Assembly (NCBI RefSeq): GCF_013122565.1
Contig: NZ_CP053258.1
Strand: one strand, 5' to 3'
Source: Escherichia coli
GTDB lineage: Bacteria; Pseudomonadota; Gammaproteobacteria; Enterobacterales; Enterobacteriaceae
DNA: 64,000 nucleotides
A program made the position numbers and the translations under genes. The notes under the pieces were generated by a model. That model saw only the letters and a program-made list of their open reading frames with translations. It was not told the DNA's origin and ran no database searches. Positions 1 through 10,461 of the stretch are shown here, in pieces (position 1 is the first letter of the stretch; each line of letters starts with the position of its first letter).

Positions 1-188
1 TGGTAAGGAATATTACTTCTGGTTCTCAGTAAAATCCTTTCGTAATACTATGTAATCAAGAAGTTTATGGCTGGTAAAAATAACGTCTTGCATTCACCAA
101 TAATATGTAAATAAACCCATCTATAGATGGTAAAAATAGGTTGTGGCAATTATCATTGCATCATTCCCTTTTCGAATGAGTTTCTATT

Positions 189-1727
189 ATGCAACAACCT
201 GTAGTTCGCGTTGGCGAATGGCTTGTTACTCCGTCCATAAACCAAATTAGCCGCAATGGGCGTCAACTTACCCTTGAGCCGAGATTAATCGATCTTCTGG
301 TTTTCTTTGCTCAACACAGTGGCGAAGTACTTAGCAGGGATGAACTTATCGATAATGTCTGGAAGAGAAGTATTGTCACCAATCACGTTGTGACGCAGAG
401 TATCTCAGAACTACGTAAGTCATTAAAAGATAATGATGAAGATAGTCCTGTCTATATCGCTACTGTACCAAAGCGCGGCTATAAATTAATGGTGCCGGTT
501 ATCTGGTACAGCGAAGAAGAGGGAGAGGAAATAATGCTATCTTCGCCTCCCCCTATACCAGAGGCGGTTCCTGCCACAGATTCTCCCTCCCACAGTCTTA
601 ACATTCAAAACACCGCAACACCACCTGAACAATCCCCAGTTAGAAGCAAACGATTCACTACATTTTGGGTATGGTTTTTTTTCCTGTTGTCGTTAGGTAT
701 CTGTGTAGCACTGGTAGCGTTTTCAAGTCTTGATACACGTCTTCCGATGAGCAAATCGCGTATTTTGCTCAATCCACGCGATATTGACATTAATATGGTA
801 AATAAAAGTTGTAACAGCTGGAGTTCCCCGTATCAGCTCTCTTACGCGATAGGCGTGGGTGATTTGGTGGCAACATCACTTAACACCTTCTCCACCTTTA
901 TGGTGCATGACAAAATCAACTACAACATTGATGAACCGAGCAGTTCCGGTAAAACATTATCTATTGCGTTTGTTAATCAGCGCCAATACCGTGCTCAACA
1001 ATGCTTTATGTCGGTAAAATTGGTAGACAATGCAGATGGTTCAACCATGCTGGATAAACGTTATGTCATCACTAACGGCAATCAGCTGGCGATTCAAAAT
1101 GATTTACTGGATAGTTTATCAAAAGCGTTAAACCAACCGTGGCCACAACGAATGCAGGAGATGCTCCAGCAAATTTTGCCTCATCGTGGTGCGTTATTAA
1201 CTAATTTTTATCAGGCACATGATTATTTACTGCATGGCGATGATAAATCATTGAACCGTGCCAGTGAATTATTAGGTGAGATTGTTCAATCATCCCCAGA
1301 ATTTACCTACGCGAGAGCAGAAAAAGCATTAGTTGATATCGTGCGCCATTCTCAACATCCTTTAGATGAAAAACAATTAGCAGCACTGAACACAGAAATA
1401 GATAACATTGTTACACTACCGGAATTGAATAACCTGTCCATTATATATCAAATAAAAGCGGTCAGTGCTCTGGTAAAAGGTAAAACAGATGAGTCTTACC
1501 AGGCGATAAATACTGGCATTGATCTTGAAATGTCCTGGCTAAATTATGTATTGCTTGGCAAGGTTTATGAAATGAAGGGGATGAACCGGGAAGCAGCTGA
1601 TGCATATCTCACCGCCTTTAATTTACGCCCAGGGGCAAACACCCTTTACTGGATTGAAAATGGTATATTCCAGACTTCTGTTCCTTATGTTGTACCTTAT
1701 CTCGACAAATTTCTCGCTTCAGAATAA
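189..1727 (+). CDS. cadC: CadC, membrane-bound ToxR-like transcriptional activator of cadBA
   Basis: 512 aa ORF; N-terminal winged-helix DNA-binding domain, single TM segment (FTTFWVWFFFLLSLGICVALVAF), periplasmic sensor domain; sits upstream of cadB-cadA in the same orientation. Confidence 0.9.
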   Translation: MQQPVVRVGEWLVTPSINQISRNGRQLTLEPRLIDLLVFFAQHSGEVLSRDELIDNVWKRSIVTNHVVTQSISELRKSLKDNDEDSPVYIATVPKRGYKLMVPVIWYSEEEGEEIMLSSPPPIPEAVPATDSPSHSLNIQNTATPPEQSPVRSKRFTTFWVWFFFLLSLGICVALVAFSSLDTRLPMSKSRILLNPRDIDINMVNKSCNSWSSPYQLSYAIGVGDLVATSLNTFSTFMVHDKINYNIDEPSSSGKTLSIAFVNQRQYRAQQCFMSVKLVDNADGSTMLDKRYVITNGNQLAIQNDLLDSLSKALNQPWPQRMQEMLQQILPHRGALLTNFYQAHDYLLHGDDKSLNRASELLGEIVQSSPEFTYARAEKALVDIVRHSQHPLDEKQLAALNTEIDNIVTLPELNNLSIIYQIKAVSALVKGKTDESYQAINTGIDLEMSWLNYVLLGKVYEMKGMNREAADAYLTAFNLRPGANTLYWIENGIFQTSVPYVVPYLDKFLASE

Positions 1728-2092
1728 GTAACCCCCGGGTTGATTCATGCTCGGGAATATTTGTTGTTGAGTTTTTGTATGTTCCTGTTGGTATAATATG
1801 TTGCGGCAATTTATTTGCCGCATAATTTTTATTACATAAATTTAACCAGAAGACGTCACGCAATCTATTGTAAACATTGAATGTTTATCTTTTCATGATA
1901 TCAACTTGCGATCCTGATGTGTTAATAAAAAACCTCAAGTTCTCACTTACAGAAACTTTTGTGTTATTTCACCTAATCTTTAGGATTAATCCTTTTTTCG
2001 TGAGTAATCTTAGCGCCAGTTTGGTCTGGTCAGGAAATAGTTATACATCATGACCCGGACTCCAAATTCAAAAATGAAATTAGGAGAAGAGC
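1728..2092 (+). promoter_or_regulatory. cadC-cadB intergenic region, expected to hold the Pcad promoter and CadC binding sites
   Basis: 365 bp AT-rich non-coding gap directly upstream of cadB; individual binding sites not mapped by eye. Confidence 0.45.
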
Positions 2093-3427
2093 ATGAGTTC
2101 TGCCAAGAAGATCGGGCTATTTGCCTGTACCGGTGTTGTTGCCGGTAATATGATGGGGAGCGGTATTGCATTATTACCTGCGAACCTAGCAAGTATCGGT
2201 GGTATTGCTATCTGGGGTTGGATTATCTCTATTATTGGTGCAATGTCGCTGGCGTATGTATATGCCCGACTGGCAACAAAAAACCCGCAACAAGGTGGCC
2301 CAATTGCTTATGCCGGAGAAATTTCTCCTGCATTTGGTTTTCAGACAGGTGTTCTTTATTACCATGCTAACTGGATTGGTAACCTGGCGATTGGTATTAC
2401 CGCTGTATCTTATCTTTCCACCTTCTTCCCAGTATTAAATGATCCTGTTCCGGCGGGTATAGCCTGTATTGCTATCGTCTGGGTATTTACCTTTGTAAAT
2501 ATGCTCGGCGGTACCTGGGTAAGCCGTTTAACCACTATTGGTCTGGTGCTGGTTCTTATTCCTGTGGTGATGACTGCTATTGTTGGCTGGCATTGGTTTG
2601 ATGCGGCAACTTATGCAGCAAACTGGAATACTGCGGATACCACTGATGGTCATGCGATCATTAAAAGTATTCTGCTCTGCCTGTGGGCCTTCGTGGGTGT
2701 TGAATCCGCAGCTGTAAGTACTGGTATGGTTAAAAACCCGAAACGTACCGTTCCGCTGGCAACCATGCTGGGTACTGGTTTAGCAGGTATTGTTTACATC
2801 GCTGCGACTCAGGTGCTTTCCGGTATGTATCCGTCTTCTGTAATGGCGGCTTCCGGTGCTCCGTTTGCAATCAGTGCTTCAACTATCCTCGGTAACTGGG
2901 CTGCGCCGCTGGTTTCTGCATTCACCGCCTTTGCGTGCCTGACTTCTCTGGGCTCCTGGATGATGTTGGTAGGCCAGGCAGGTGTACGTGCCGCTAACGA
3001 CGGTAACTTCCCGAAAGTTTATGGTGAAGTCGACAGCAACGGTATTCCGAAAAAAGGTCTGCTGCTGGCTGCAGTGAAAATGACTGCCCTGATGATCCTC
3101 ATCACTCTGATGAACTCTGCCGGTGGTAAAGCATCTGACCTGTTCGGTGAACTGACCGGTATCGCAGTACTGCTGACTATGCTGCCGTACTTCTACTCTT
3201 GCGTTGACCTGATTCGTTTTGAAGGCGTTAACATCCGCAACTTTGTCAGCCTGATCTGCTCTGTACTGGGTTGCGTGTTCTGCTTCATCGCGCTGATGGG
3301 CGCAAGCTCCTTCGAGCTGGCAGGTACCTTCATCGTCAGCCTGATTATCCTGATGTTCTACGCTCGCAAAATGCACGAGCGCCAGAGCCACTCAATGGAT
3401 AACCACACCGCGTCTAACGCACATTAA
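2093..3427 (+). CDS. cadB: Lysine/cadaverine antiporter (APC family)
   Basis: 444 aa polytopic membrane protein with amino-acid antiporter signature; immediately upstream of cadA. Confidence 0.9.
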   Translation: MSSAKKIGLFACTGVVAGNMMGSGIALLPANLASIGGIAIWGWIISIIGAMSLAYVYARLATKNPQQGGPIAYAGEISPAFGFQTGVLYYHANWIGNLAIGITAVSYLSTFFPVLNDPVPAGIACIAIVWVFTFVNMLGGTWVSRLTTIGLVLVLIPVVMTAIVGWHWFDAATYAANWNTADTTDGHAIIKSILLCLWAFVGVESAAVSTGMVKNPKRTVPLATMLGTGLAGIVYIAATQVLSGMYPSSVMAASGAPFAISASTILGNWAAPLVSAFTAFACLTSLGSWMMLVGQAGVRAANDGNFPKVYGEVDSNGIPKKGLLLAAVKMTALMILITLMNSAGGKASDLFGELTGIAVLLTMLPYFYSCVDLIRFEGVNIRNFVSLICSVLGCVFCFIALMGASSFELAGTFIVSLIILMFYARKMHERQSHSMDNHTASNAH

Positions 3428-3506
3428 TTAAAAGTATTTTCCGAGGCTCCTCCTTTCATTTTGTCCCATGTGTTGGGAGGGGCCTTTTTTACCTGGAGAT
3501 ATGACT

Positions 3507-5654
3507 ATGAACGTTATTGCAATATTGAATCACATGGGGGTTTATTTTAAAGAAGAACCCATCCGTGAACTTCATCGCGCGCTTGAACGTCTGAACTTCC
3601 AGATTGTTTACCCGAACGACCGTGACGACTTATTAAAACTGATCGAAAACAATGCGCGTCTGTGCGGCGTTATTTTTGACTGGGATAAATATAATCTCGA
3701 GCTGTGCGAAGAAATTAGCAAAATGAACGAGAACCTGCCGTTGTACGCGTTCGCTAATACGTATTCCACTCTCGATGTAAGCCTGAATGACCTGCGTTTA
3801 CAGATTAGCTTCTTTGAATATGCGCTGGGTGCTGCTGAAGATATTGCTAATAAGATCAAGCAGACCACTGACGAATATATCAACACTATTCTGCCTCCGC
3901 TGACCAAAGCGCTGTTTAAATATGTTCGTGAAGGTAAATATACTTTCTGTACTCCTGGTCACATGGGCGGTACTGCATTCCAGAAAAGCCCGGTAGGTAG
4001 CCTGTTCTATGATTTCTTTGGTCCGAATACCATGAAATCTGATATTTCCATTTCAGTATCTGAACTGGGTTCTCTGCTGGATCACAGTGGTCCACACAAA
4101 GAAGCAGAACAGTATATCGCTCGCGTCTTTAACGCAGACCGCAGCTACATGGTGACCAACGGTACTTCCACTGCGAACAAAATTGTTGGTATGTACTCTG
4201 CTCCGGCAGGCAGCACCATTCTGATTGACCGTAACTGCCACAAATCGCTGACCCACCTGATGATGATGAGCGATGTTACGCCAATCTATTTCCGCCCGAC
4301 CCGTAACGCTTACGGTATTCTTGGTGGTATCCCACAGAGTGAATTCCAGCACGCTACCATTGCTAAGCGCGTGAAAGAAACACCAAACGCAACCTGGCCG
4401 GTACATGCTGTAATTACTAACTCTACCTATGATGGTCTGCTGTACAACACCGACTTCATCAAGAAAACACTGGATGTGAAATCCATCCACTTTGACTCCG
4501 CGTGGGTACCTTACACCAACTTCTCACCGATTTACGAAGGTAAATGCGGTATGAGCGGTGGCCGTGTAGAAGGGAAAGTGATTTACGAAACCCAGTCTAC
4601 TCACAAACTGCTGGCGGCGTTCTCTCAGGCTTCCATGATCCACGTTAAAGGTGACGTAAACGAAGAAACCTTTAACGAAGCCTACATGATGCACACCACC
4701 ACTTCTCCGCACTACGGTATCGTGGCGTCCACTGAAACCGCTGCGGCGATGATGAAAGGCAATGCAGGTAAGCGTCTGATCAACGGTTCCATTGAACGTG
4801 CGATCAAATTCCGTAAAGAGATCAAACGTCTGAGAACGGAATCTGATGGCTGGTTCTTTGATGTATGGCAACCGGATCATATCGATACGACTGAATGCTG
4901 GCCGCTGCGTTCTGACAGCACCTGGCACGGCTTCAAAAACATCGATAACGAGCACATGTATCTTGACCCGATCAAAGTCACCCTGCTGACTCCGGGGATG
5001 GAAAAAGACGGCACCATGAGCGACTTTGGTATTCCGGCCAGCATCGTGGCGAAATACCTCGACGAACATGGCATCGTTGTTGAGAAAACCGGTCCGTATA
5101 ACCTGCTGTTCCTGTTCAGCATCGGTATCGATAAGACCAAAGCACTGAGCCTGCTGCGTGCTCTGACTGACTTCAAACGTGCGTTCGACCTGAACCTGCG
5201 TGTGAAAAACATGCTGCCGTCTCTGTATCGTGAAGATCCTGAATTCTATGAAAACATGCGTATTCAGGAACTGGCTCAGAATATCCACAAACTGATTGTT
5301 CACCACAATCTGCCGGATCTGATGTATCGCGCATTTGAAGTGCTGCCGACAATGGTAATGACTCCGTATGCTGCGTTCCAGAAAGAGCTGCACGGTATGA
5401 CCGAAGAAGTTTACCTCGACGAAATGGTAGGTCGTATTAACGCCAATATGATCCTTCCATATCCGCCGGGAGTTCCTCTGGTAATGCCGGGTGAAATGAT
5501 CACCGAAGAAAGCCGTCCGGTTCTGGAGTTCCTGCAGATGCTGTGTGAAATCGGCGCTCACTATCCGGGCTTTGAAACCGATATTCACGGTGCATACCGT
5601 CAGGCTGATGGCCGCTATACCGTTAAGGTATTGAAAGAAGAAAGCAAAAAATAA
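3507..5654 (+). CDS. cadA: Inducible lysine decarboxylase (PLP-dependent)
   Basis: ORF 3468..5654; start placed at the in-frame ATG (MNVIAILNHMG...) giving 715 aa; Orn/Lys/Arg decarboxylase fold with SxHK PLP motif. Confidence 0.9.
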   Translation: MNVIAILNHMGVYFKEEPIRELHRALERLNFQIVYPNDRDDLLKLIENNARLCGVIFDWDKYNLELCEEISKMNENLPLYAFANTYSTLDVSLNDLRLQISFFEYALGAAEDIANKIKQTTDEYINTILPPLTKALFKYVREGKYTFCTPGHMGGTAFQKSPVGSLFYDFFGPNTMKSDISISVSELGSLLDHSGPHKEAEQYIARVFNADRSYMVTNGTSTANKIVGMYSAPAGSTILIDRNCHKSLTHLMMMSDVTPIYFRPTRNAYGILGGIPQSEFQHATIAKRVKETPNATWPVHAVITNSTYDGLLYNTDFIKKTLDVKSIHFDSAWVPYTNFSPIYEGKCGMSGGRVEGKVIYETQSTHKLLAAFSQASMIHVKGDVNEETFNEAYMMHTTTSPHYGIVASTETAAAMMKGNAGKRLINGSIERAIKFRKEIKRLRTESDGWFFDVWQPDHIDTTECWPLRSDSTWHGFKNIDNEHMYLDPIKVTLLTPGMEKDGTMSDFGIPASIVAKYLDEHGIVVEKTGPYNLLFLFSIGIDKTKALSLLRALTDFKRAFDLNLRVKNMLPSLYREDPEFYENMRIQELAQNIHKLIVHHNLPDLMYRAFEVLPTMVMTPYAAFQKELHGMTEEVYLDEMVGRINANMILPYPPGVPLVMPGEMITEESRPVLEFLQMLCEIGAHYPGFETDIHGAYRQADGRYTVKVLKEESKK

Positions 5655-5667
5655 TTAGCTCGTACAA

Positions 5668-5696
5668 GGGAAGTGGCTTGCCACTTCCCTTTTTTG
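5668..5696 (+). terminator. Rho-independent terminator after cadA
   Basis: GC-rich hairpin (gggaagtgg...ccacttccc) followed by a T6 run, 14 bp after the cadA stop. Confidence 0.7.
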
Positions 5697-5712
5697 CTCA
5701 TAAGGAGAACAC

Positions 5713-7170
5713 ATGAAAACACCCTCACAGCCGCGCGCGATATACTATATCGTGGCGATCCAAATCTGGGAGTACTTCAGTTTTTACGGCATGCGTGCCT
5801 TACTCATTCTCTATCTCACCCATCAGCTTGGTTTTGATGATAACCATGCCATCAGCCTGTTCAGCGCATATGCTTCTCTGGTTTACGTTACCCCTATTCT
5901 CGGCGGCTGGCTTGCCGACCGCCTGCTCGGCAACCGCACTGCAGTGATTGCCGGCGCGCTGTTAATGACCCTTGGCCATGTGGTGCTGGGCATTGATACA
6001 AATTCAACCTTTAGCCTGTATCTGGCGCTGGCAATCATTATTTGTGGCTACGGTTTATTCAAATCAAACATCAGCTGTTTGCTTGGCGAGCTCTACGACG
6101 AGAACGATCATCGACGTGATGGCGGTTTTTCGCTGCTGTATGCTGCGGGCAATATCGGTTCTATCGCCGCCCCCATCGCCTGCGGCCTAGCTGCTCAGTG
6201 GTATGGATGGCATGTTGGCTTTGCCCTTGCGGGTGGCGGCATGTTTATCGGTTTGTTGATTTTCTTAAGCGGTCATCGTCATTTCCAGTCCACGCGTAGT
6301 ATGGATAAAAAAGCGCTCACTAGCGTGAAATTTGCCTTACCAGTATGGAGCTGGTTAGTGGTGATGCTCTGTTTAGCCCCAGTATTTTTTACCCTGCTGC
6401 TGGAGAACGACTGGTCCGGATATTTGCTGGCGATCGTTTGCCTCATTGCCGCACAAATCATTGCCCGCATGATGATCAAATTCCCCGAACACCGCCGTGC
6501 TCTTTGGCAAATTGTATTGTTGATGTTTGTCGGGACATTGTTCTGGGTACTGGCACAACAGGGCGGCAGTACCATCAGCTTGTTTATCGATCGCTTTGTG
6601 AATCGTCAGGCATTCAATATTGAAGTACCTACAGCACTATTCCAGTCGGTGAATGCAATTGCGGTGATGCTCGCTGGGGTTGTTCTGGCCTGGCTGGCGT
6701 CGCCAGAAAGTCACGGCAACTCAACATTGCGCGTCTGGCTGAAGTTTGCCTTTGGCTTACTGCTGATGGCTTGTGGGTTTATGTTGCTGGCATTTGATGC
6801 CCGACATGCAGCAGCTGACGGTCAAGCGTCAATGGGCGTGATGATATCCGGGCTGGCGCTAATGGGCTTTGCCGAACTCTTTATTGACCCGGTGGCGATT
6901 GCGCAAATCACGCGTCTGAAAATGTCTGGCGTATTAACCGGTATTTATATGCTGGCAACAGGCGCGGTCGCCAACTGGCTGGCAGGCGTCGTGGCACAGC
7001 AGACGACAGAGTCGCAAATTAGCGGTATGGCAATTGCAGCTTACCAGCGATTCTTTTCTCAGATGGGAGAGTGGACGTTGGCTTGTGTCGCGATCATCGT
7101 GGTATTGGCCTTTGCTACCCGTTTTCTGTTTAGCACGCCGACGAATATGATACAGGAGAGCAACGATTAA
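5713..7170 (+). CDS. dtpC: Dipeptide/tripeptide:proton symporter (POT/PTR2 family)
   Basis: 485 aa MFS-type permease; position between cadA and lysU matches dtpC (yjdL). Confidence 0.85.
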
Positions 7171-7406
7171 CTGTCGTAAAAACAATTGGTTATGAATAAA
7201 TTAACTTTCAGCTTATAACACTAGCAAATCGAGATTAATAAGTCATTTAAACCATTTCGATGGTTATTTATTAGTGATATCAACTTGAGGTAAGCGTTAG
7301 TTTCGATAAGATAAACTGAGTTATTAATAGTCGAGGCAGATAATACAGTGTACCGATCTGTCTCTTTATCTACGCTAAATTGAAAGCTGGATTTAGAGGA
7401 ACCAAA

Positions 7407-8924
7407 ATGTCTGAACAAGAAACACGGGGAGCCAATGAGGCTATTGATTTTAACGATGAACTGAGAAATCGCCGCGAAAAACTGGCGGCACTACGTCAGC
7501 AAGGTGTGGCGTTTCCCAATGATTTTCGCCGCGACCATACCTCTGACCAGTTGCACGAAGAGTTTGATGCGAAGGATAACCAGGAACTGGAATCCTTAAA
7601 CATTGAAGTCTCGGTTGCTGGCCGAATGATGACCCGTCGTATCATGGGGAAAGCCTCCTTTGTAACGTTGCAGGATGTCGGTGGCCGTATTCAACTGTAC
7701 GTCGCACGAGATAGCCTGCCAGAAGGTGTTTATAACGATCAGTTTAAAAAATGGGATCTGGGTGACATTATCGGTGCCCGCGGTACGCTGTTTAAGACGC
7801 AAACGGGTGAGCTTTCCATTCACTGTACTGAGCTGCGCCTGCTGACTAAAGCACTACGTCCTTTACCAGATAAATTCCATGGTCTGCAGGATCAGGAAGT
7901 CCGTTATCGTCAACGTTATCTGGACCTCATCGCTAACGATAAATCCCGTCAAACGTTTGTTGTCCGTTCAAAAATTCTGGCCGCTATCCGCCAGTTCATG
8001 GTCGCGCGCGGCTTTATGGAAGTAGAAACCCCGATGATGCAGGTAATTCCAGGTGGGGCATCTGCTCGCCCGTTTATTACCCATCATAACGCTCTGGATT
8101 TAGATATGTATCTGCGTATCGCGCCGGAGCTGTATCTGAAACGTCTGGTTGTAGGCGGTTTTGAACGGGTATTCGAAATCAACCGTAACTTCCGTAATGA
8201 AGGTATTTCTGTTCGCCATAATCCTGAGTTCACAATGATGGAACTCTACATGGCGTATGCGGATTACCACGATTTGATTGAACTGACAGAGTCACTGTTC
8301 CGCACCCTGGCACAAGAGGTTCTGGGTACCACTAAAGTCACTTATGGCGAGCATGTGTTTGATTTCGGCAAACCGTTTGAAAAACTCACCATGCGCGAAG
8401 CAATCAAAAAATATCGTCCAGAAACCGATATGGCCGACCTGGATAATTTTGATGCTGCTAAAGCATTAGCTGAATCTATCGGAATTACGGTAGAGAAAAG
8501 CTGGGGGCTGGGACGTATTGTCACGGAGATCTTTGATGAAGTGGCAGAAGCACATCTGATTCAGCCAACCTTTATTACGGAATATCCGGCAGAAGTGTCA
8601 CCGCTGGCGCGCCGTAATGATGTTAACCCAGAAATCACCGACCGTTTTGAATTCTTCATCGGTGGTCGTGAAATCGGTAATGGTTTTAGCGAATTAAACG
8701 ACGCAGAAGATCAGGCTGAACGTTTCCAGGAACAGGTTAACGCTAAAGCTGCAGGTGACGACGAAGCCATGTTCTATGACGAAGATTACGTGACTGCGCT
8801 GGAATATGGTCTGCCGCCAACCGCTGGCCTGGGTATTGGCATCGACCGAATGATTATGCTGTTTACTAACAGCCATACTATTCGCGACGTTATTCTCTTC
8901 CCGGCGATGCGCCCACAGAAATAA
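7407..8924 (+). CDS. lysU: Lysyl-tRNA synthetase, inducible isoform
   Basis: ORF 7380..8924; start at MSEQETRG gives 505 aa; class II aaRS motifs and N-terminal OB anticodon-binding domain; position next to the cad locus identifies it as lysU rather than lysS. Confidence 0.9.
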
Positions 8925-8935
8925 ATTTCACTTTA

Positions 8936-8969
8936 ATGAACGAAGCAGTCAGGCGACTGCTTCGTTCAT
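8936..8969. terminator. Inverted repeat between the convergent lysU and ghoT genes, possible bidirectional terminator
   Basis: 15 bp perfect stem (atgaacgaagcagtc / gactgcttcgttcat) with a 4 nt loop; no strong T-tract on the + strand. Confidence 0.4.
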
Positions 8970-9042
8970 CGTTCCGCAAATCCAGTTTTGAGGAGAGACG
9001 CTTCGTTTCACGATAACCAGCGGGTCCACTCAACTACAGCTC

Positions 9043-9216
9043 CTAAAAGAGAGAAAAAAGTAATGCCACGGGCAGACTCATTGGCCAGGTTATTCCGACC
9101 AGGAATGCACTAAGTAAACGAATATGTGTTTTCTCATGTGAGATAAACCAGATAATGACAAAGGATATGTTCACACCAATCACATAAAAAATTAATATTT
9201 TAGAGAATAGCGCCAT
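9043..9216 (-). CDS. ghoT: GhoT, small membrane toxin of the type V toxin-antitoxin pair
   Basis: Not in the ORF track (57 aa, below cutoff); translated by hand on the minus strand: MALFSKILIFYV...LFSLF then stop; hydrophobic two-helix peptide directly downstream of ghoS on the same strand. Confidence 0.75.
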   Translation of the reverse strand: MALFSKILIFYVIGVNISFVIIWFISHEKTHIRLLSAFLVGITWPMSLPVALLFSLF

Positions 9217-9243
9217 TTTTTATGTTCTTCTTATCCTTCCTGG

Positions 9244-9540
9244 CTACTTGTAAAACTGACGGAAATAGTCATCAACTGTCATAATGTTGAGGTCAAAATC
9301 AATATCCGGTAAGTCTAAGCATTTAAGCCTGATTAAATCTTCGATTTCACTTGCGGCTAACGATGTCGTTATTGCGAAGGAATTTTCATTCAATTGTCGT
9401 GGTATCCCATATTCATCAGCCACGATAGAAGAGAAATTCATATCATACATCAATGATCTTAACCTTAAGAACACTGAGGAATAAGATGATGGATAATCAA
9501 AAGAAACAACATAAGTATTGAACTTGTTTTTACCTTCCAT
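9244..9540 (-). CDS. ghoS: GhoS, antitoxin endoribonuclease of the type V toxin-antitoxin pair
   Basis: 98 aa ORF (MEGKNKFNTYVVSFDYPSSY...); immediately upstream of ghoT on the same strand; matches YjdK/GhoS. Confidence 0.8.
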   Translation of the reverse strand: MEGKNKFNTYVVSFDYPSSYSSVFLRLRSLMYDMNFSSIVADEYGIPRQLNENSFAITTSLAASEIEDLIRLKCLDLPDIDFDLNIMTVDDYFRQFYK

Positions 9541-9766
9541 AATATGACTCCTATCAATATTAAACGCTCTGGGGACGCAAAACTTATTAACCCCGATTGA
9601 TGATTCTCATATAGGAGATATTCTTTTTTTTGCTCAGTAAAGGGGATGACTTGGGACAAAAAAACGCTCTCTCTGCCCATTCTTTGTGCATCCCCCTACC
9701 CTTCAGATGCTCTCCTGCATCACTCCGCGGAGAGCATGAAAAATATCGTGAATCTGTACTCTCCCA

Positions 9767-10039
9767 TCAACTGCGAATATCATCATACTCCCGCGTTTTA
9801 TCAAATTCGTGTTTCGCAAATGGACATAATGGGATAATTTTTCGTTTTTCCCGACGCATTTTTTCCACGACTTTCGCAACCAGCTGTTTACCAATCCCTT
9901 GCCCTTTCAGGCTTTCATCGACATCGGTATGTTCGATAATCGCTAAATTCTCTCCAGTCGGCACAAAGACAATTTCAGCGATTTGCTTGCCCTGTTCGTC
10001 ATTAATGTAAAATTTATTGTGGCCTTCGCGTATTTCCAT
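9767..10039 (-). CDS. yjdJ: Small GNAT-family acetyltransferase-like protein
   Basis: 90 aa ORF; position between ghoS and yjdI. Confidence 0.75.
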
Positions 10040-10050
10040 TTTACCCTCGC

Positions 10051-10281
10051 TTATTTATGACGGTATTTCAGCGCGCCGCTCGGGCACGTATCAATCACTT
10101 TAACCACAGTGGCGACGTCGACTTCATCCGGCATGATCCACGGCTTTCGTTTGAGATTAAATAACTTGCCGTTGCCACGTACGCAATTGCCAGAATGCTG
10201 ACATATCGCAGTGTTGAAATAGACATCGATCTTTTCGCCGGTATAACAGCGATAACCCTCGTCCAGTAGCGCCTGATCCAT
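10051..10281 (-). CDS. yjdI: Small cysteine-rich protein of unknown function
   Basis: 76 aa ORF with CxxC...C motifs; conserved position upstream of dcuS. Confidence 0.75.
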
Positions 10282-10461
10282 GACCTTCCCTCTCTCATCA
10301 GTATGGTTTTCACTATAAGCATAGCCCTGGAATCTTCATACAGCACTGGCAGTTTCCGTTGCCAGAGTCTCTTCCCCTATATAGCCAATCATTCTTACTC
10401 CCTTTGAATTACCCGCCTCATCAGAGATAATGCTTAAGAAATTTGTCACACAAGGAAGCTG

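What the first reader, a model, noticed from the sequence alone, without database searches (positions are those of the whole stretch)
9043..9540. Type V toxin-antitoxin pair ghoS-ghoT; the toxin gene is missing from the ORF track
Hand translation of the minus strand downstream of ghoS gives a 57 aa hydrophobic peptide (MALFSKILIFYV...LFSLF) matching the GhoT membrane toxin. Its partner upstream is the GhoS antitoxin, which acts as an RNase on the toxin mRNA rather than binding the toxin protein. Size-thresholded ORF callers miss the toxin. A long inverted repeat sits just downstream, between ghoT and the convergent lysU.
Basis: partly seen in the sequence, partly recalled or inferred. Interest (0 to 1): 0.4.

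Follow-up and report, generated by a model that had tools for sequence, protein, structure and literature searches.

The report
Known ghoS-ghoT toxin-antitoxin gene pair
This is the well-studied E. coli ghoS-ghoT pair, a small membrane-damaging toxin and an RNA-cutting antitoxin; it is intact, ordinary and already annotated in public genomes, and its only oddity here is a rare silent base change in the toxin gene.

Summary
Window 9043..9216 (-) is a 57-aa ORF and 9244..9540 (-) a 98-aa ORF. Their proteins are 100% identical to E. coli K-12 GhoT and GhoS. They match Pfam PF10753 (E 9e-26) and PF11080 (E 6e-41). GhoS equals the solved structure 2LLZ, and its nearest other folds are Cas2 and VapD.

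The locus is in 5344 of 5426 complete E. coli genomes and is annotated there as the type V system. The toxin is "missing" only because the ORF lister defaults to 60 aa. The inverted repeat is real: 15-bp perfect arms at 8936-8969, -24.8 kcal/mol, z -5.4. It has no U-tract, so it is not a canonical terminator.

Verdict: already known, low interest.

Small additions:
- A silent A-to-G change at 9211 creates a GCU in ghoT, which the literature calls GCU-free. This allele is absent from every collection searched.
- The GhoS family is tiny (37 clusters).
- Gene order is flipped, or GhoT is degraded or absent, in diverged relatives.
- The reported key residue R28 is not conserved.

The parts
9244..9540 (-). 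ghoS (yjdK) CDS, 98 aa plus a TAG stop. It encodes the type V antitoxin, a Cas2-like endoribonuclease. R28, L25 and M31 are present with the published numbering.
9043..9216 (-). ghoT (yjdO) CDS, 57 aa plus a TAG stop. It encodes a small hydrophobic two-helix inner-membrane toxin. F38 and I21 are present.
   Evidence: ORF. Pfam PF10753 E 8.9e-26. Identical to K-12 WP_001173343.1. GRAVY is 1.5, with two hydrophobic segments (about residues 4-26 and 34-57) around the polar loop SHEKTHIR. There are no amino-acid changes across 9 comparator loci despite 2-6 nt differences.
9217..9243 (-). 27-nt ghoS-ghoT spacer (CCAGGAAGGATAAGAAGAACATAAAAA). Its purine-rich stretches are GGAAGGA (9240..9234, 17 nt before the ATG) and AAGAAG (9232..9227, 10 nt before the ATG). 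This makes a weak or poorly spaced ribosome-binding site for the toxin.
   Evidence: Sequence read directly. The weak-RBS reading is inference.
9548..9552 (-). AGGAG Shine-Dalgarno sequence 7 nt upstream of the ghoS ATG, a strong ribosome-binding site for the antitoxin.
   Evidence: Sequence read directly. Function is inferred.
9541..9766 (-). 226-nt region between the yjdJ stop and the ghoS start. It presumably holds the ghoST promoter and 5' leader, neither of which was located. It contains a 9-bp hairpin (9707-9715 / 9729-9737).
   Evidence: Folds better than shuffles, -65.9 kcal/mol, z -2.49. Hairpin I11. The only minus-strand promoter-like match is 9804..9776, inside the 3' end of yjdJ, and the total number of matches is not above shuffles. 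No Rfam family matches.
8936..8969 (.). Perfect 15-bp inverted repeat with a 4-nt loop between the convergent lysU and ghoT. It is the probable shared 3'-end hairpin (bidirectional terminator or 3' stabiliser).
   Evidence: I2. RNA fold -24.8 kcal/mol, z -5.40, 0 of 200 shuffles as good. No U-tract, so it is not called by the terminator scan. At least 13-14 bp of stem is kept in all 7 aligned E. coli-like sequences; the only variant is A-to-G at the penultimate base of the 3' arm.
9209..9211 (-). A GCU trinucleotide at nt 6-8 of ghoT, created by a synonymous Ala2 GCA-to-GCG change (window 9211 is C on the + strand; K-12 has T). GCU is the preferred cleavage motif of the toxin MqsR.
   Evidence: The K-12 allele has no GCU in ghoT. 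A 55-mer centred on the site gives 0 of 5426 E. coli genomes for the window allele and 5283 for the K-12 allele. The allele is absent from GTDB species representatives, JGI metagenomes and 6 related loci.
9318..9420 (-). Three GCU sites inside ghoS (G at 9420, 9328 and 9320; nt 121, 213 and 221 of the CDS). These are the published MqsR targets in the 5' half of the ghoST transcript.
   Evidence: The count of three matches the literature (PMC4803016).
7407..8924 (+). lysU (annotated lysS by PGAP), the convergent neighbour. It is context, not part of the system.

Best explanation
This is the chromosomal ghoST locus of an E. coli-type genome, the founding type V toxin-antitoxin system, intact and under purifying selection. 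Shown here: the two genes are present, adjacent, co-oriented (ghoS then ghoT, 27 nt apart) and encode proteins identical to the characterised K-12 proteins. GhoS has the Cas2/VapD-like ferredoxin fold. GhoT is a 57-aa peptide with two hydrophobic helices. Taken from the literature on identical proteins: one ghoS-ghoT transcript is made. GhoS is a stable sequence-specific endoribonuclease that cleaves the ghoT part of the mRNA (and about 20 other mRNAs), so little GhoT is made. GhoS does not bind GhoT. When the toxin MqsR is freed under stress, it cuts at GCU sites in the ghoS half, and the ghoT half is enriched and translated. GhoT then inserts in the inner membrane, lowers ATP and proton-motive force, and gives slow growth, persistence or 'ghost' cells. 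Inferred from sequence: the strong AGGAG site before ghoS and the poorly spaced purine stretch before ghoT bias translation toward the antitoxin. The 15-bp hairpin at 8936-8969 forms the 3' end of both convergent transcripts. In this genome a rare silent change places one GCU at codons 2-3 of ghoT, which could let MqsR cut the toxin message as well.
For: Identity. Near-universal presence and annotation in E. coli: 5344 of 5426 genomes. Fold. Hydropathy. Purifying selection: all ghoT differences are synonymous in 9 comparisons. Functional coupling of the two families: an intact GhoT-family ORF lies next to a diverged GhoS homolog (54%, 31% and 29% identity) in three independent loci. Mechanism from the literature: PMC4344625, PMC4010927, PMC4905990, PMC3905216, PMC4803016, PMC11783221. 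Three GCU sites in ghoS, as published. Hairpin.
Against: None against identity. Caveats on mechanism follow. A delta-ghoS Keio strain exists and is used routinely (strain table in PMC4010927), so native GhoT is not lethal without GhoS. Four diverged GhoS loci have no GhoT-like ORF, and one has a frameshifted ghoT. R28, reported as the key catalytic residue, is R or K in only 7 of 15 family members; it is T or S in two homologs that still sit beside an intact GhoT. GCU-free ghoT is not conserved: homologs carry 1-4 GCU sites, a 174-nt ORF of this composition lacks GCU by chance about 8% of the time, and this window has one. No promoter or canonical terminator was found by scanning. The primary papers (Wang 2012, 2013) were not held, so their details come second-hand.
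Confidence: 0.93

Rival explanations
1. GhoS is primarily a general small RNase or regulator resident in the cad-lysU neighbourhood of Enterobacterales. Silencing of ghoT is a secondary, lineage-specific role, so the 'toxin-antitoxin' label overstates what the locus does in its native context.
For: Orphan GhoS homologs without GhoT (L010, L011, L013, L014) and a decayed ghoT beside an intact ghoS (L005/L006). GhoS homologs sit beside lysine decarboxylase and/or lysyl-tRNA synthetase genes in L007, L012 and L014, as in E. coli. GhoS is reported to degrade about 20 other mRNAs of purine and pyrimidine metabolism (PMC4010927). The delta-ghoS strain is viable. R28 is not conserved.
Against: Three diverged loci keep the GhoT-GhoS pair intact. 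GhoT is perfectly conserved in protein across E. coli. Published experiments show GhoS neutralises GhoT but not the 63%-identical paralog OrtT (PMC4344625).
Confidence: 0.12
2. In this particular genome the MqsR-to-GhoT cascade is weakened or uncoupled. The silent change at 9211 creates a GCU at nt 6-8 of ghoT, so MqsR would cut the toxin mRNA right after its start codon as well as cutting the ghoS part.
For: Searches show the new GCU. The K-12 allele is nearly fixed (5283 of 5426 genomes), and the window allele is absent from all collections searched. The cascade model rests on ghoT lacking GCU (PMC4905990, PMC4803016).
Against: It is a single site close to the ribosome-binding region and may be protected by initiating ribosomes. 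The ghoT 3' UTR already carries GCU at 9040, 9021 and 8946 in all strains. GCU-freeness may be a chance property of a short AT-rich ORF (P about 0.08). The change could be a neutral private polymorphism or a sequencing error. Whether this genome has mqsRA is unknown, as it lies outside the window.
Confidence: 0.1
3. The inverted repeat at 8936-8969 is not a transcription terminator. It would instead be a protein-binding palindrome, an RNA-stability or processing element for only one of the two genes, or a chance feature.
For: No U-tract follows the stem on either strand, and the terminator scan finds nothing in 8800-10500. No compensatory substitutions were seen.
Against: It is a perfect 15-bp GC-containing stem with z -5.4, placed exactly between two convergent stop codons, and it is conserved in all aligned relatives. 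This is the typical position of a bidirectional 3'-end hairpin.
Confidence: 0.2
4. The 57-aa ORF is a chance open frame in AT-rich DNA and is not a gene.
For: It is short, has 36% G+C in a 51% G+C window and falls below the default ORF threshold.
Against: Pfam E 8.9e-26. Identity to a characterised protein. All substitutions are synonymous. Homologs sit next to GhoS in other genera.
Confidence: 0.01

Closest known systems
GhoT/GhoS (YjdO/YjdK) type V toxin-antitoxin system of E. coli K-12 (Wang et al. 2012, Nat Chem Biol 8:855)
   Same: Both proteins are 100% identical. Gene order, the 27-nt spacer, the neighbours (lysU, yjdJ, yjdI, dcuS) and the three GCU sites in ghoS are all the same.
   Different: There are 6 silent nucleotide differences in the two genes. 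One of them (9211) creates a GCU in ghoT that K-12 and 5283 other E. coli genomes lack.
OrtT (YdcX), the orphan paralog of GhoT in E. coli
   Same: Same Pfam family (PF10753 Toxin_GhoT_OrtT), same length (57 aa), two transmembrane helices and a conserved F38 (PMC4344625).
   Different: OrtT has no adjacent antitoxin and is not neutralised by GhoS. The ORF here sits directly downstream of ghoS and is identical to GhoT, not OrtT.
Cas2 (CRISPR adaptation) and VapD endoribonucleases
Type I membrane toxins (Hok, TisB, and others)
   Same: These are small hydrophobic inner-membrane peptides whose synthesis is blocked at the mRNA level, giving loss of PMF/ATP and ghost cells.
   Different: In type I systems the antitoxin is an antisense RNA. 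Here it is a protein RNase. No antisense promoter signal above background was found and no Rfam family matched.

Membership tests
GhoT/OrtT toxin family (Pfam PF10753) | Sequence match above the curated Pfam threshold | tested here: met
   90.4 bits against a cut-off of 22.1, E 8.9e-26, covering profile positions 1-55 of 55. Identical to WP_001173343.1.
GhoT/OrtT toxin family (Pfam PF10753) | About 57 aa with two hydrophobic transmembrane segments, and with F38, which is needed for toxicity | tested here: met
   57 aa, GRAVY 1.5, hydrophobic windows at residues 4-26 and 34-57. F38 and I21 are present in the sequence. The F38R loss of toxicity is reported in PMC4344625.
GhoT/OrtT toxin family (Pfam PF10753) | Growth inhibition and membrane damage when expressed | not testable with these tools
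   Known only from the literature on the identical K-12 protein.
GhoS antitoxin family (Pfam PF11080) | Sequence match above the curated Pfam threshold, and identity to the solved structure | tested here: met
   138.8 bits against a cut-off of 21, E 6.1e-41. Residues 1-98 are identical to 2LLZ_A residues 3-100.
GhoS antitoxin family (Pfam PF11080) | Cas2-like ferredoxin fold | tested here: met
GhoS antitoxin family (Pfam PF11080) | Catalytic residue R28 reported as most important for RNase activity | tested here: met
   R28 is present in the window protein (importance stated in PMC4010927). Across the family, however, this position is R or K in only 7 of 15 sequences.
GhoS antitoxin family (Pfam PF11080) | Endoribonuclease activity on ghoT mRNA | not testable with these tools
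   Literature only.
Type V toxin-antitoxin system | Toxin and protein antitoxin genes adjacent and co-oriented, compatible with one transcript | tested here: met
   ghoS 9540..9244 and ghoT 9216..9043 are on the same strand with a 27-nt gap and no hairpin or terminator between them. Co-transcription itself was not tested; the literature describes a single ghoST transcript.
Type V toxin-antitoxin system | The antitoxin acts by cleaving the toxin mRNA, not by binding the toxin or acting as an antisense RNA | not testable with these tools
   Literature only.
MqsR-controlled GhoST cascade (Wang et al. 2013) | ghoS coding region carries GCU sites | tested here: met
   Three GCU sites at nt 121, 213 and 221, the number stated in PMC4803016.
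MqsR-controlled GhoST cascade (Wang et al. 2013) | ghoT coding region lacks GCU | tested here: not met
   One GCU at nt 6-8 in the window; none in K-12. The allele is not found elsewhere.

The most novel reading that the evidence does not exclude
The GhoS family may be an old, very small RNase family tied to the lysine-decarboxylase / lysyl-tRNA-synthetase neighbourhood of Enterobacterales. Its pairing with GhoT would be fluid (order flipped, toxin decayed or absent), and its chemistry would not depend on the reported key residue R28. On this reading, the textbook picture of a type V antitoxin controlled by MqsR through a GCU-free toxin mRNA is an E. coli-specific and partly accidental arrangement. 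The lineage in this window would already have broken it with a silent GCU-creating change in ghoT.
Probability: 0.12. Interest if true: 0.35.

Novelty: already known. Interest (0 to 1): 0.08.

Why it matters
It matters little as a discovery. The locus is the textbook type V toxin-antitoxin system, characterised since 2012 and annotated by NCBI's pipeline in nearly all E. coli genomes. There are two practical points. First, a 60-aa ORF threshold hides real small membrane-toxin genes such as ghoT, so the scan's ORF track needs a lower cut-off or a homology pass. Second, the comparative side-observations are cheap leads for anyone re-examining how general the published GhoS/GhoT/MqsR model is. 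These are the flipped gene order, the orphan GhoS genes, the non-conserved R28 and the non-conserved GCU-free status of ghoT.

Tried and rejected
- NCBIfam HMMs gave no hit for either protein, although PGAP names both, presumably by another rule type. PADLOC gave no hit, so the pair is not catalogued as phage defence.
- Rfam found nothing significant in 8500-10500. The only match was a chance 21-nt viral pseudoknot at E 0.47.
- GhoT has no solved relative in the PDB.
- An 11-bp perfect A/U inverted repeat (9182-9192 / 9215-9225) could sequester the ghoT start codon. I considered it as a translational switch and rejected it: it is absent from the minimum-free-energy fold, and the region folds no better than shuffles (z -0.43 and -0.77).
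- Antisense (type I-like) control was considered. Plus-strand promoter-like matches exist at 9170 and 9256, but the total count (5) is within the shuffle expectation of 3.8 +/- 2.1.
- The mechanical ORFs overlapping ghoS (66 aa on + at 9284..9484; 71 aa on - at 9465..9680) have no support and were not pursued.
- The primary papers (Wang 2012, Wang 2013) are not held. The literature search for critiques returned only unrelated uses of the word 'ghost'.
- The search for related loci with the GhoS alignment failed because no stretch was conserved enough, so organism names for the diverged loci were not obtained.
- The database 'fusion' protein P0003 is a frameshift artefact. The spacer contains an in-frame TAA, so simple read-through of the ghoS stop cannot fuse the two proteins.

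Full report
**Observation.**
On the minus strand, a 98-aa ORF (9540..9244) is followed after 27 nt by a 57-aa ORF (9216..9043). Upstream on the same strand are yjdJ (a GNAT acetyltransferase) and yjdI (a 4Fe-4S protein). Downstream, and convergent, is lysU at 7407..8924. At the ORF tool's default 60-aa threshold the 57-aa ORF is not listed. That explains why it was "missing from the ORF track".

**Identity.**
- The 57-aa protein matches Pfam Toxin_GhoT_OrtT (PF10753) at 90.4 bits, E 8.9e-26.
- The 98-aa protein matches GhoS (PF11080) at 138.8 bits, E 6.1e-41.
- Both are identical, residue for residue, to the K-12 MG1655 proteins annotated as "type V toxin-antitoxin system toxin GhoT" and "endoribonuclease antitoxin GhoS".
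- GhoS is identical to the NMR structure 2LLZ.
- A 921-nt query across the locus matches 5344 of 5426 complete E. coli genomes, always with this annotation.
- GhoT has a GRAVY of 1.5 and two hydrophobic segments around a short polar loop. It also keeps F38, the residue whose change abolishes toxicity (PMC4344625).
- Against nine other E. coli-type loci, ghoT carries 2-6 nucleotide differences and no amino-acid change. That is clear purifying selection.

**Mechanism.**
The sequence alone cannot show RNase activity, toxicity or co-transcription. These come from the literature on identical proteins.
- GhoS is a stable endoribonuclease that cleaves ghoT mRNA, and about 20 other mRNAs, rather than binding the toxin.
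- GhoT damages the inner membrane, lowers ATP and produces ghost or persister cells.
- MqsR degrades the ghoS-encoding 5' part of the ghoST transcript at GCU sites and so enriches the ghoT part.

The sequence agrees with this in several ways. The genes are adjacent and co-oriented with no hairpin between them. ghoS has a well-placed AGGAG, while ghoT has only poorly spaced purine runs. ghoS carries exactly the three GCU sites reported.

**The inverted repeat.**
A perfect 15-bp stem with a 4-nt loop lies at 8936-8969, 12 nt after the lysU stop and 73 nt after the ghoT stop. It folds at -24.8 kcal/mol, z -5.4 against shuffles. It is kept in all aligned relatives, with one A/G variant near the base of the stem. 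It has no U-tract on either strand, so the terminator scan does not call it. I read it as the shared 3'-end hairpin of the two convergent transcripts. That is an inference.

**A small twist in this genome.**
The window differs from K-12 by six silent changes in the two genes. One of them, at 9211, turns Ala2 GCA into GCG and creates a GCU at nt 6-8 of ghoT. The literature stresses that ghoT is one of only 14 K-12 mRNAs without GCU, and that this is why MqsR spares it.

I tested how common the allele is with a 55-mer centred on the site, so that every 28-nt seed must include it.
- The window allele matches 0 of 5426 complete E. coli genomes.
- The K-12 allele matches 5283.
- The window allele is also absent from GTDB species representatives, from JGI metagenomes, and from six related loci that share this window's melB deletion.

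The allele is therefore rare or private. It could blunt the MqsR-GhoT link, be neutral, or be a sequencing error. Against reading much into it, a 174-nt ORF of this composition lacks GCU by chance about 8% of the time. GhoT homologs elsewhere carry 1-4 GCU sites, and the ghoT 3' UTR has GCU sites in all strains.

**Relatives elsewhere.**
An exhaustive HMMER search of 1.84 billion representatives finds only 37 GhoS clusters at E of 1e-3 or better, many of them fragments. I looked up diverged full-length homologs.

| Loci | GhoS identity to window | Arrangement |
|---|---|---|
| L007/L008, L009, L012 | 54%, 31%, 29% | Intact GhoT-family ORF immediately upstream of ghoS on the same strand (toxin first, the reverse of E. 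coli) |
| L005/L006 | 59% | E. coli order, but ghoT is frameshifted |
| L023 | 65% | E. coli order, but the ghoS stop is lost, so the ORF runs into ghoT |
| L010, L011, L013, L014 | 27-33% | No GhoT-like ORF |

Several of these loci lie next to lysine decarboxylase-like and lysyl-tRNA synthetase genes, the same neighbourhood as E. coli's cadBA-lysU. The repeated pairing supports a functional link between the two families. The orphan GhoS genes and the decayed toxin show that the link is not obligatory.

In an alignment of 15 family members the invariant residues are F36, D42, G45 and L50, within the motif FS-IVAD--GIPR-L. R28, reported as the most important residue for GhoS RNase activity, is R or K in only 7 of 15. 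It is T or S in two homologs that still have an intact GhoT neighbour.

**Comparison and verdict.**
The locus is a member of the GhoT/GhoS type V system by every feature that can be tested from sequence. The one exception is the "GCU-free ghoT" feature of the MqsR cascade model, which is not met here. Nothing about the locus is new. Novelty: already known. Interest: low.

Noticed in passing
window 9211 (and 9070): Two silent ghoT changes are specific to this window. The one at 9211 creates a GCU (the MqsR motif) at codons 2-3 of ghoT. This allele is absent from 5426 E. coli genomes, GTDB species representatives, JGI metagenomes and six related loci.
   Followed up: yes
L007 1289-1791, L009 1305-1803, L012 1271-1797: In diverged GhoS homologs (54%, 31% and 29% identity) an intact GhoT-family ORF lies upstream of ghoS on the same strand. 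This toxin-first order is the reverse of E. coli.
   Followed up: partly
L005 1501-1957, L006, L010, L011, L013, L014: Some GhoS homologs are orphans with no GhoT-like ORF nearby. In L005/L006 the ghoT next to an intact ghoS is frameshifted between its two helices.
   Followed up: partly
alignment A1 (GhoS family), window GhoS residue 28 = codon at 9459..9457: R28, reported as the key RNase residue, is R or K in only 7 of 15 family members. F36, D42, G45 and L50 are invariant, within the motif FS-IVAD--GIPR-L at residues 36-50.
   Followed up: partly
L007, L012, L014 versus window 189-9540: GhoS homologs in other genera sit beside lysine-decarboxylase-like and/or lysyl-tRNA-synthetase genes, the same neighbourhood as cadCBA-dtpC-lysU-ghoTS here. 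The L007 synthetase gene is 79% identical in DNA to its best E. coli match, annotated lysS.
   Followed up: partly
L023 1050-1457: A lineage with 65%-identical GhoS has lost the ghoS stop codon, so one ORF runs from ghoS into an intact ghoT. This was seen as the 135-aa protein P0042, which has 91 member sequences.
   Followed up: partly
window 17191-17213: melB is deleted. About 1.67 kb present in E. coli references (a REP-like sequence plus melB) is replaced by 23 nt, which extends yjdF to 216 aa and abuts melA (17214..18569, -). The same 216-aa YjdF occurs on 68 public contigs.
   Followed up: partly
window 9541-9766: The 226-nt region upstream of ghoS is more structured than shuffles (z -2.49) and has a 9-bp hairpin at 9707-9737. 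Neither a promoter nor a known RNA family was found there. Several of the SNPs against K-12 fall in it.
   Followed up: partly
window 1-20000: The best match among 5426 complete E. coli genomes is only 99.2% identical, although the proteins checked are exact copies of common variants. The source lineage appears poorly sampled and was not identified.
   Followed up: partly
L003 (NZ_CM132257.1), L017, L020: Some E. coli strains lack ghoST. An IS1A element abuts yjdJ where lysU-ghoTS should be (L003). A fimbrial usher gene replaces the region in L020. In L017 a transposase gene is inserted between yjdI and dcuS, and the locus ends inside ghoS, where the gene call is a truncated 73-aa GhoS.
   Followed up: no
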